A stretch of DNA of 10,190 bases, from the IMG/VR virus record IMGVR_UViG_2740892233_000002; one strand, 5' to 3'. Position numbers and translations under genes: made by a program. This DNA comes from a virus (Duplodnaviria > Heunggongvirae > Uroviricota > Caudoviricetes). The notes beneath the pieces were generated by a model. It searched no databases. It worked only from the letters and a program-made list of their open reading frames with translations, and was not told the origin of the DNA. Of the stretch, positions 9,312-9,691 are shown piece after piece. Position 1 is the first letter of the stretch. Each line of letters begins with the position of its first letter.

Positions 9312-9314
9312 TCC
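8907..9314. repeat. Two tandem 204-bp units (8907..9110 and 9111..9314) with the N-run occupying the last 10 positions of the first unit
   Basis: 8907..9100 vs 9111..9304 align at a constant 204-nt offset with ~8 mismatches (~96% identity); 204 = 68 codons, so the reading frame is preserved if the N-run is exactly 10 nt. Confidence 0.85.
9101..9110. other. Run of 10 N at the junction of the Nu1 tandem units
   Basis: Ten n; occupies the position homologous to 9305..9314 (Nu1 RBS/start region). Confidence 0.95.
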
Positions 9315-9461
9315 TCACCTCGCAAAAACTCTCACCTCACAATCACAACAAAACCGGTCATGTCCGGTTTACATATCTATTTTTTGTGCATGTCCGGTTC
9401 ACAGAAGACCTGTTTTTATATTTTTCATATAGTTAACTTGAAGAGAAACCGGACATGGTTC
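9312..9461. promoter_or_regulatory. Putative cosB-type terminase-binding region (non-lambda) between cosN and Nu1
   Basis: Three copies of the 11-mer catgtccggtt: 9359..9369 and 9389..9399 direct, 9447..9457 inverted; the first lies inside the imperfect palindrome aaccggtcatgtccggtt. An AT-rich spacer (acatatctattttttgtg) between sites 1 and 2 could bind IHF. Position relative to cosN and Nu1 matches lambda cosB. Confidence 0.5.
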
Positions 9462-9525
9462 CCGGAAAATTTTCATAAATAGCGAAAACCCGCGAGGTCG
9501 CCGCCCCGTAACCTGTCGGATCGCC
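9462..9525. repeat. Copy 1 of a 64-bp cos-junction direct repeat (identical to 9628..9691), ending at the N-run
   Basis: ccggaaaattttcataaatagcgaaaacccgcgaggtcgccgccccgtaacctgtcggatcgcc occurs identically at 9462..9525 and 9628..9691; contains aggtcgccgccc (9495..9506), the reverse complement of the lambda 12-nt cohesive end GGGCGGCGACCT. Confidence 0.9.
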
Positions 9526-9535
9526 NNNNNNNNNN
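9526..9535. other. Run of 10 N between the two cos-region copies
   Basis: Ten n. Confidence 0.95.
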
Positions 9536-9627
9536 TCGTTTTCAGCACCTGTCGTTTCCTTTCTTTTCAGGGGGTGTTTTAAATAAAAACATTAGGTTAC
9601 GGCGAAGAAGAACGGAAACGCCTTAAA
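9536..9627. promoter_or_regulatory. Lambda-type cosB segment (R-site-like elements), near-identical to the lambda left end
   Basis: Reverse complement reads ...tttaaggcgtttccgttcttcttcg...ctgaaaagaaaggaaacgacaggtgctgaaa, matching the recalled lambda left-end sequence between cosN and Nu1, including cgtttcctttct and cgtttccgttct-type elements. Confidence 0.6.
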
Positions 9628-9691
9628 CCGGAAAATTTTCATAAATAGCGAAAACCCGCGAGGTCGCCGCCCCGTAACCTGTCGGATCGCC
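9628..9691. repeat. Copy 2 of the 64-bp cos-junction direct repeat, continuous with the right-end sequence
   Basis: Identical to 9462..9525; continues into ggaaaggacccg..., which matches the reverse complement of the recalled lambda right end. Confidence 0.9.
9661..9672. other. cos: cosN cohesive-end sequence (12 nt), as in a joined prophage/circular/concatemer cos
   Basis: aggtcgccgccc = reverse complement of lambda GGGCGGCGACCT, flanked by lambda-like left-end and right-end sequences. A second copy lies at 9495..9506. Confidence 0.7.

What the first reader, a model, noticed from the sequence alone, without database searches (positions are those of the whole stretch)
9312..9691. Two different cosB regions and a duplicated cos junction flank the N-run
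The identical 64-bp cos junction (cosN plus ~19 bp of right end plus ~33 bp of left end) occurs at 9462..9525 and 9628..9691. Copy 1 is joined to a non-lambda cosB with three catgtccggtt elements and to the non-lambda Nu1. Copy 2 is preceded by ~92 bp of lambda-type cosB that stops at the N-run and has no cognate Nu1 in the window. That looks like two packaging-specificity alleles sharing one cosN, either as genuine tandem cos sites or as alternative assembly paths placed in series.
Basis: partly seen in the sequence, partly recalled or inferred. Interest (0 to 1): 0.6.

Follow-up and report, generated by a model that had tools for sequence, protein, structure and literature searches.

The report
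Duplicated cos site is assembly artefact
The two cos junctions either side of the N-run are not a tandem packaging site: they are branches of a short-read assembly graph, from different lambda-like prophages that share the same cosN, written one after the other in a draft E. coli scaffold.

Summary
An exact 64-bp cos junction occurs at 9462-9525 and 9628-9691. Copy 1 adjoins a non-lambda cosB with three CATGTCCGGTT elements; copy 2 adjoins 92 bp of lambda-type cosB.

The duplication is an artefact. The window is the whole draft record CCPX01000148.1, five pieces joined by four runs of exactly 10 N. Three piece ends (130, 9100, 9525) fall exactly 64 nt after the last base that distinguishes the piece from its paralog. 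That is the behaviour of de Bruijn graph nodes with k = 65, so the 64-bp repeat is a k-1 overlap.

In complete genome E2865 the two pieces lie in different prophages about 550 kb apart, each with one cos. None of 5,426 complete E. coli genomes, and no phage record, has the tandem arrangement. A second bubble, two alleles of the small-terminase N-terminus, is serialised the same way at 9101-9110.

The real biology is ordinary. Co-resident lambda-like prophages share identical cosQ-cosN but have different cosB/TerS modules. The non-lambda module is neither phage 21 nor N15 type. It occurs in 21% of complete E. coli genomes and in phage PhiR12_2, and I found no paper characterising it.

The parts
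1..130 (.). Piece P0: inverted copy of the ylcI region (9998-10127), with 2 mismatches at positions 63 and 66. It ends exactly 64 nt after the last mismatch.
131..140 (.). 10-N scaffold placeholder
662..671 (.). 10-N placeholder that hides about 2.4 kb of ISEc22. The IS left end is at 602-661 and the target-site duplication CATCAAAC at 594-601.
6698..8626 (-). Large terminase (gpA-like) gene with premature stop W570* at 6917-6919
8598..9100 (-). Small terminase (Nu1 family, non-lambda type), allele A, lacking its first 7 nt. The allele-A branch 8907-9100 ends 64 nt after its last allele-specific base (9036).
9101..9110 (.). 10-N placeholder between the two serialised branches of the TerS bubble
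9111..9311 (-). Second copy of the TerS N-terminus, allele B (67 codons, GTG start at 9311). It is 100% identical to the E2865 prophage at 3.06 Mb, and it starts on a base that differs from allele A.
9312..9461 (-). Non-lambda complex cosB. R1-like 9359-9369, R2-like 9389-9399 and R3-like 9447-9457 (opposite orientation) correspond to bp 138-148, 108-118 and 50-60 from the cohesive end.
9462..9525 (-). 64-bp cos junction copy 1, interpreted as the k-1 tail of the non-lambda cosB branch running into the shared node. The cohesive-end 12-mer is at 9495-9506.
9526..9535 (.). 10-N placeholder between the two serialised cosB branches
9536..9627 (-). Lambda-type cosB fragment (lambda bp 46-137). R3 core GGAAACG is at 9614-9620 and R2 core CGTTTCC at 9553-9559. 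R1 and Nu1 are absent.
9628..9691 (-). 64-bp cos junction copy 2, continuous with the right-end sequence. The cohesive-end 12-mer is at 9661-9672.
9673..10083 (-). Lambda-like right end (cosQ side), 95.6% identical to lambda 48092-48502
9872..10066 (+). ylcI/ynfO (DUF3950) gene. The identical protein lies next to either TerS type in other genomes.

Best explanation
The duplicated cos junction is a scaffolding artefact of a short-read de Bruijn graph assembly of an E. coli strain that carries several lambda-like prophages.

These prophages share an identical cosQ-cosN core: the right end plus left-end bp 1-45. From bp 46 they diverge into two cosB/small-terminase modules, one lambda-type and one non-lambda type with CATGTCCGGTT repeats.

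In the graph, the two cosB branches converge on the shared core. The assembler wrote both branches in series, separated by a fixed 10-N placeholder. The first branch carries a k-1 = 64 nt tail into the shared node, and that tail is the apparent duplicate.

The same thing happened 400 bp upstream to two alleles of the small-terminase N-terminus.

The true loci each have a single cos. The non-lambda cosB piece joins directly to the right-end sequence at 9692, and the lambda-type cosB fragment belongs to another prophage with its own lambda-type Nu1.

Shown: the repeat, the N-runs, the 64-nt rule, the mapping to separate prophages, and the absence of the tandem form elsewhere. Inferred: k = 65 and the graph topology in this particular assembly.
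For: 1. The window is the entire WGS record CCPX01000148.1 of GCA_000752875.1. It contains four N-runs, all exactly 10 N.

2. Three piece ends obey one rule, end = last paralog-distinguishing base + 64: 66+64 = 130, 9036+64 = 9100, 9461+64 = 9525. Piece 9111-9525 begins on a distinguishing base.

3. In complete genome E2865, piece 9111-9525 is 100% identical at 3.060 Mb. There it overlaps the right-end sequence by exactly those 64 bp, giving a single cos (L001). Piece 9536-10190 is 99.5% identical at 2.504 Mb, beside a lambda-type 181-aa Nu1 (L002).

4. A composite tandem query reaches at most 75% coverage. No place covers >=80% in 5,426 complete E. coli genomes or 50,697 phage records.

5. 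All 14 comparator loci (L001-L004, L014-L023) have exactly one cohesive-end 12-mer; 13 have it between a TerS gene and ylcI, and L014 has no called TerS gene. The window has two.

6. The closest complete genomes hold 2-3 copies of the non-lambda cosB and 2-4 copies of the lambda-type cosB at separate places.

7. The 10-N run at 662-671 stands for about 2.4 kb of ISEc22 in strain B1_2, so N-run length is not a measured gap.

8. The two TerS N-terminal alleles match two different prophages. Allele A (V29, E63) matches strain 2313. Allele B (I29, D63) matches E2865.

9. Independent assemblies that carry the same W570* terminase allele have an intact 169-aa TerS, and their contigs stop inside the shared cos core. 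Logan contig L010 stops exactly 30 nt into it.
Against: No reads or assembly graph for GCA_000752875.1 could be examined, and the rest of that assembly could not be searched for the lambda-type Nu1.

The fourth junction does not fit the rule exactly: piece 141-661 ends 60 nt into ISEc22, not 64, and piece 672 onwards starts after the target-site duplication rather than on it.

The start of piece 9536 cannot be tested against a paralog.

The assembler and its k are inferred, not documented; no paper was found for the accession.

The tandem-query test only detects copies within about 700 bp of each other and at megablast-level identity.
Confidence: 0.95

Rival explanations
1. Genuine tandem hetero-specific cos sites. 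The strain really has two cosN sites about 166 bp apart in one prophage, the first with the non-lambda cosB and the second with a truncated lambda-type cosB. This could have arisen by recombination between prophages within the shared cos core.
For: The scaffold as deposited shows this order. Co-resident prophages share an identical 64+ bp core that could support unequal recombination.
Against: The copies are joined only through a placeholder N-run. The repeat length equals the k-1 tail seen at two other junctions. None of 5,426 complete genomes or the phage records has it. The lambda-type cosB lacks R1 and its Nu1 and stops exactly at the N-run. From general knowledge of lambda packaging, two cosN sites 166 bp apart would be cut into a fragment that cannot be packaged.
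Confidence: 0.02
2. The scaffold order is correct but the gap is large. The N-run 9526-9535 hides tens of kilobases, so two complete prophages lie in tandem in the same orientation and the two cos sites are a prophage length apart.
For: The N-run at 662-671 does hide about 2.4 kb, so 10 N can conceal real sequence. Some STEC genomes carry many lambdoid prophages.
Against: Piece 9111-9525 ends exactly at the k-1 boundary of a graph junction, not at a linked unique end. In E2865 the two matching prophages are about 550 kb apart. Short-insert read pairs cannot link across a prophage length (inference).
Confidence: 0.02
3. Mixed sample. The two cosB types come from two strains, or from contaminating phage DNA, in the sequenced culture rather than from two prophages in one genome.
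For: It would produce the same graph branching. It cannot be excluded without read depths.
Against: It is unnecessary. Complete single-chromosome genomes such as E2865, RM10386 and RM8426 carry both types at 100% identity to the window pieces.
Confidence: 0.01

Closest known systems
Repeat-induced scaffolding artefact of de Bruijn graph assemblers (both branches of a bubble or junction written in series, with k-1 overlaps either side of a minimal N gap)
   Same: The N-runs have a fixed length. The sequence either side of them is redundant. A constant 64-nt tail follows the last distinguishing base at three junctions. The pieces map to different paralogous loci in finished genomes.
   Different: The assembler and its k are not documented for this record. 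One of the four junctions (the IS end) is 4 nt off the rule.
Bacteriophage lambda cos (cosQ-cosN-cosB with R3, I1, R2, R1, and Nu1)
   Same: Copy 2 is 131/137 identical to lambda bp 1-137, and the right end is 95.6% identical to lambda's last 411 bp. Both copies have lambda's exact 12-nt cohesive end and bp 13-45.
   Different: In the window, the lambda-type cosB is cut before R1 and has no Nu1. Copy 1 diverges completely from lambda from bp 46 onward.
Phage 21 cos / gp1 (a second packaging specificity that shares cosQ and cosN with lambda; PMC4669245)
   Same: The principle is the same: an identical cosQ-cosN core with a different cosB and a different TerS N-terminal domain. There are three R-like repeats, with R3 in the same position. 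The R core is similar (21 has CATGTCGG, the window has CATGTCCGG).
   Different: The TerS N-terminus has no BLAST-detectable similarity to gp1 of phage 21; only the C-terminal part is about 40% identical. The R1-like element is inverted relative to the lambda/21 layout. No IHF consensus of 8/9 or better lies between R3 and R2.
N15 / Monarch cosB and PICI cos sites (further cosB variants on a lambda-like cosN; PMC4669245, PMC9026076)
   Same: Alternative recognition sites are placed at about bp 48-65 next to a conserved cosN, which illustrates that cosB modules are exchangeable.
   Different: The N15 R3 (GAGGTTGTTGTT) is unrelated, and the N15 cohesive end differs at 2 positions. PICIs lack their own terminase, whereas this cosB sits next to a full TerS/TerL/head gene set.

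Membership tests
Genuine tandem (duplicated) cos site | The two cos copies are joined by determined sequence | tested here: not met
   The copies are separated by a 10-N run at 9526-9535, one of four identical placeholders.
Genuine tandem (duplicated) cos site | The arrangement is found in finished genomes or phage genomes | tested here: not met
   No place covers >=80% of the composite query in 5,426 complete E. coli genomes or in the phage collection. All 14 comparator loci have one cohesive-end 12-mer.
Genuine tandem (duplicated) cos site | Each cos has a complete cosB and a cognate TerS gene | tested here: not met
   The lambda-type cosB lacks R1, and there is no lambda-type Nu1 in the window.
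De Bruijn graph scaffold artefact (branches in series) | Each piece ends a constant k-1 after its last paralog-distinguishing base | tested here: met
   130 = 66+64, 9100 = 9036+64, 9525 = 9461+64. The fourth junction (661) is 60 nt into ISEc22, 4 nt off.
De Bruijn graph scaffold artefact (branches in series) | Adjacent pieces derive from different paralogous loci | tested here: met
   In E2865 the pieces map to prophages at 3.060 Mb and 2.504 Mb. The TerS alleles A and B match different prophages.
De Bruijn graph scaffold artefact (branches in series) | N-runs are placeholders, not sized gaps | tested here: met
   All four runs are exactly 10 N. One stands for about 2.4 kb of ISEc22.
De Bruijn graph scaffold artefact (branches in series) | Read-level or graph-level confirmation in the source assembly | not testable with these tools
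   Reads and the graph of GCA_000752875.1 are not available here, and no paper describes the assembly.
Lambda-like cos with complex cosB (lambda/21/Monarch architecture), for the non-lambda copy | 12-nt cohesive end and cosQ-side right end like lambda | tested here: met
   GGGCGGCGACCT and bp 13-45 are identical to lambda. The right end is 95.6% identical over 411 nt.
Lambda-like cos with complex cosB (lambda/21/Monarch architecture), for the non-lambda copy | An R3 element at about bp 48-65 from the cohesive end, plus two further R repeats | tested here: met
   11-mers lie at bp 50-60, 108-118 and 138-148. They are invariant in 5 distinct cosB sequences while the spacers vary. The position criterion comes from PMC9026076.
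Lambda-like cos with complex cosB (lambda/21/Monarch architecture), for the non-lambda copy | IHF site I1 between R3 and R2 | tested here: inconclusive
   No match of 8/9 or better to WATCAANNNNTTR lies between R3 and R2. Lambda has one at bp 79-91 and phage 21 at bp 74-86. The window has only an A/T-rich tract there, and an 8/9 match at bp 121-133 between R2 and R1.
Lambda-like cos with complex cosB (lambda/21/Monarch architecture), for the non-lambda copy | Adjacent TerS of the Nu1 family with an N-terminal DNA-binding domain | tested here: met
   Pfam Phage_Nu1 covers aa 49-150. phrog_57 matches the full length in register with lambda, 21 and N15 TerS, and the N-terminal 67 aa alone score E = 9e-11. 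The 3-D fold was not predicted.
Lambda-like cos with complex cosB (lambda/21/Monarch architecture), for the non-lambda copy | TerS binds the R elements and confers packaging specificity | not testable with these tools
   This needs binding or helper-packaging experiments.
Phage 21 packaging specificity | 21-type R sequence and gp1 recognition helix | tested here: not met
   The R core differs by an extra C (CATGTCCGG against CATGTCGG). The TerS N-terminus is not BLAST-similar to gp1; only aa 64-166 are 39.8% identical.

The most novel reading that the evidence does not exclude
The N-run hides nothing of consequence, and this strain really carries two cosN sites about 166 bp apart in one prophage. 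The first would be served by the non-lambda cosB/TerS and the second by a truncated lambda-type cosB, as a recombination product between co-resident prophages. It would be a natural dual-specificity packaging site. A weaker but likelier reading is that the CATGTCCGGTT cosB with its 169-aa TerS is an uncharacterised packaging specificity distinct from lambda, 21 and N15. I put that at about 0.6, with interest of about 0.3 if true.
Probability: 0.02. Interest if true: 0.55.

Novelty: not a real feature. Interest (0 to 1): 0.1.

Why it matters
As a biological claim it does not stand: the tandem cos is an assembly artefact, and anyone who mines draft genomes for cos duplications or for "split" Nu1 genes should discount such records. 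The practical value is a simple diagnostic. It combines fixed 10-N runs, redundant sequence on both sides, and a constant tail length after the last distinguishing base. The real biology underneath is that lambda-like prophages in one STEC-like genome share an identical cosQ-cosN core but use different cosB/TerS modules. This is already established in principle for lambda and 21. The non-lambda module seen here is common (21% of complete E. coli genomes) and I found no paper that characterises it, so it could be a modest target for packaging-specificity experiments.

Tried and rejected
1. A literature search for the accession (CCPX01 / GCA_000752875) to learn the assembler found nothing relevant.

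2. A literature search for the 11-mer CATGTCCGGTT and for phage PhiR12_2 gave only chance primer or symbol matches.

3. A PDB sequence search with the non-lambda TerS gave no significant hit (best E = 0.71). NCBIfam gave no hit.

4. An IHF consensus scan found no match of 8/9 or better between R3 and R2 of the non-lambda cosB.

5. I considered filing the non-lambda cosB as phage 21 type because of the CATGTC..GG core. I rejected this because the TerS N-terminus is unrelated at BLAST level and the R core has an extra base.

6. I considered N15/Monarch type and rejected it: the R3 is different and the N15 cohesive end differs (PMC4669245).

7. I tried to extend the 64-nt rule to the IS junction. 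It is 4 nt off on the left side, and the target-site duplication is missing on the right. This is unexplained.

8. I did not run structure prediction or large protein searches, because the question was settled without them.

Full report
**Observation**

An exact 64-bp direct repeat lies at 9462-9525 and 9628-9691.

In lambda orientation each copy consists of:
- the last 19 nt of a lambda-like right end;
- the 12-nt cohesive end GGGCGGCGACCT;
- left-end bp 13-45, all identical to phage lambda.

Copy 1 continues into a non-lambda cosB. It carries CATGTCCGGTT at 9359 and 9389 and the reverse complement at 9447. The GTG start of a 169-aa small terminase follows at 9311.

Copy 2 is preceded by 92 bp of lambda-type cosB. 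Window 9536-9672 is 131/137 identical to lambda bp 1-137. This fragment starts at the N-run 9526-9535.

The window has no lambda-type Nu1. A tblastn search with one finds only the C-terminal half of the non-lambda TerS, at 47% identity.

The window holds four N-runs, each exactly 10 N: 131-140, 662-671, 9101-9110 and 9526-9535. It is therefore five pieces:

| Piece | Coordinates |
|---|---|
| P0 | 1-130 |
| P1 | 141-661 |
| P2 | 672-9100 |
| P3 | 9111-9525 |
| P4 | 9536-10190 |

The run at 9101-9110 is also flanked by redundant sequence. Positions 8908-9100 and 9112-9304 are 96% identical. They encode two alleles of the same small-terminase N-terminus, V29/E63 against I29/D63.

P0 is an inverted copy of 9998-10127 with two mismatches.

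The window is the entire NCBI WGS record CCPX01000148.1 of draft assembly GCA_000752875.1. Locus L008 equals the reverse complement of the window.

**The 64-nt rule**

Three independent piece ends fall exactly 64 nt after the last base that distinguishes the piece from its paralog in the same record:

| Piece | Last distinguishing base | Piece end |
|---|---|---|
| P0 | 66 | 130 |
| P2 | 9036 | 9100 |
| P3 | 9461 | 9525 |

P3 also begins (9111) on a base that differs from P2's paralogous position.

This is the behaviour of nodes of a de Bruijn graph with k = 65. A branch node contains every k-mer that includes a branch-specific base, so it runs k-1 = 64 nt into the shared sequence.

The 64-bp "duplicated cos junction" is that tail. 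The non-lambda cosB branch (P3) and the lambda-type cosB branch (start of P4) both lead into one shared cos node. They were printed one after the other with a placeholder gap.

The two TerS alleles form a second bubble that was serialised the same way.

From memory, at least one widely used assembler writes a minimum of 10 N for any gap estimated as shorter than that. I could not document which assembler was used here.

**Finished genomes**

In the complete chromosome of strain E2865:
- P3 is 100% identical at 3.060 Mb. Its last 64 bp run straight on into the right-end sequence that matches window 9628 onwards. That prophage has one cos, followed by ylcI.
- P4 is 99.5% identical at 2.504 Mb, about 550 kb away. 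It lies in a different prophage where the lambda-type cosB continues into R1 and a 181-aa lambda-type Nu1.

To look for a true tandem form, I built a composite 370-nt query: non-lambda cosB + cos + lambda cosB + cos, with the Ns removed. It reaches at most 75% coverage, which is the value expected from a single cos. No place covers >=80% in 5,426 complete E. coli genomes or in 50,697 phage records.

All 14 comparator loci, including ten long contigs that encode the identical YlcI protein, have exactly one cohesive-end 12-mer, whichever cosB type they carry. In 13 of them it lies between a TerS gene and ylcI; L014 has no called TerS gene.

In the comparators the distance from the Nu1 start to the ylcI start is 389-396 bp. 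In the window it is 561 bp. The excess is the 166 bp made up of 10 N, 92 bp and 64 bp.

**Why the graph branches**

- The non-lambda cosB-specific 150 nt occurs in 1,154 of 5,426 complete genomes, with up to 4 places per genome.
- The lambda-type 92 nt occurs in 3,831 of 5,426 genomes, with up to 6 places per genome.
- The genomes that match best (E2865, O26 RM10386 and RM8426, O103 RM8385 and others) carry 2-3 copies of the former and 2-4 of the latter, both at 100% identity.

Two non-lambda copies explain the TerS allele bubble. A lambda-type copy explains the second cosB branch.

P1+P2 match strain 2313 best (99.83%), but P3 matches that genome only at 97.3%. So P2 and P3 themselves probably come from different prophages.

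**N-runs are placeholders**

In strain B1_2 the sequence either side of 662-671 is separated by about 2.4 kb of ISEc22, with an 8-bp target duplication CATCAAAC.

This junction is the one imperfect fit to the rule. P1 ends 60 nt into the IS, not 64, and P2 begins after the duplicated 8-mer rather than on it. I have no explanation for this.

**Independent assemblies**

The truncated large terminase of this window (W570*) is recorded exactly in 115 blocks of the public collection. Contigs that carry it have an intact 169-aa TerS, and they stop inside the shared cos core. Logan contig L010 stops exactly 30 nt into it. That equals k-1 if Logan's k is 31, a value I give from memory.

**The real biology**

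Both cosB types sit on the same cosQ-cosN core. This principle is established for lambda and phage 21, which share identical cosQ and cosN yet discriminate more than 1000-fold through TerS-cosB contacts (PMC4669245).

The non-lambda module is a lambda-like complex cosB:
- Its 11-mers lie at bp 50-60, 108-118 and 138-148 from the cohesive end.
- The first occupies the R3 slot at bp 48-65, whose distance to cosN is critical (PMC9026076).
- The three 11-mers are invariant across five distinct cosB sequences, including phage PhiR12_2, while all variable columns fall in the spacers. That sample is small and not very diverse.

Its orientation pattern (R3 forward, R2 and R1 reverse) differs from lambda and 21, where R1 is forward. 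No IHF consensus of 8/9 or better lies between R3 and R2, whereas lambda and 21 each have one there.

The cognate TerS belongs to the Nu1 family:
- Pfam Phage_Nu1 covers aa 49-150.
- phrog_57 matches over the full length, in register with lambda, 21 and N15 TerS.
- Its C-terminal half is 40-47% identical to theirs.
- Its N-terminal DNA-binding region is not BLAST-similar to any of them.

I infer a packaging specificity distinct from lambda, 21 and N15. This is untested, and I found no paper that describes it.

**Verdict**

"Genuine tandem cos sites" is very unlikely (about 2%).

As a genomic feature the duplication is not real, and interest is low. What remains is an ordinary multi-prophage STEC-like genome with exchangeable cosB/TerS modules on a common cosN, plus a common but apparently uncharacterised cosB type.

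Noticed in passing
window 6917-6919 (gene 6698-8626, - strand): The large terminase gene has a premature stop, W570*, relative to the 642-aa protein of strain 2313. The exact 569-aa product is recorded in 115 blocks of the public collection, so it is a real and widespread allele. It probably marks a packaging-defective prophage lineage.
   Followed up: partly
window 1920 (FI gene 1672-2046, - strand): The DNA-packaging protein FI gene carries a nonsense change, Q43*, relative to strain 2313. This is a second inactivating lesion in the same prophage.
   Followed up: partly
window 594-671: ISEc22 (IS66 family) is inserted in the gpU tail-terminator gene. The IS left end is at 602-661, the target duplication CATCAAAC at 594-601, and about 2.4 kb of the element is hidden under the 10-N run. 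The same insertion is fully assembled in strains B1_2 and CAU16175.
   Followed up: yes
window 1-130 vs 9998-10127: The first piece of the scaffold is an inverted copy (2 mismatches) of the ylcI region at the other end. It is 100% identical to the ylcI region of the E2865 prophage that also matches piece 9111-9525 perfectly. It is joined through 10 N to the middle of a tail gene, which is probably another scaffolding misjoin.
   Followed up: partly
window 9101-9110 with 8908-9100 / 9112-9304: The small-terminase gene appears as a 237-aa ORF containing Ns, because two alleles of its N-terminus (7 nt differences within the 193-nt repeat, 2 aa differences) are written in series. Gene callers on the deposited record report this chimeric 237-aa product.
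   Followed up: yes
window 9359-9457; L005 (phage 21) bp 52-161: The non-lambda R core CATGTCCGG differs from the phage 21 R core CATGTCGG by one inserted C, although the two TerS N-terminal domains show no BLAST-level similarity. Whether this reflects common descent or convergence is open.
   Followed up: no
window 9872-10066 (+); L014-L023: The identical 64-aa YlcI/YnfO (DUF3950) protein is encoded about 390 bp from the TerS start, on the opposite strand. It sits next to either TerS type in many genomes, so the right-end module is exchanged independently of the cosB/TerS module.
   Followed up: partly
window 661 / 672 (junction with ISEc22): This junction departs from the 64-nt rule: 60 nt of the IS are retained, and the right-hand piece starts after the target-site duplication. 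Unexplained.
   Followed up: partly
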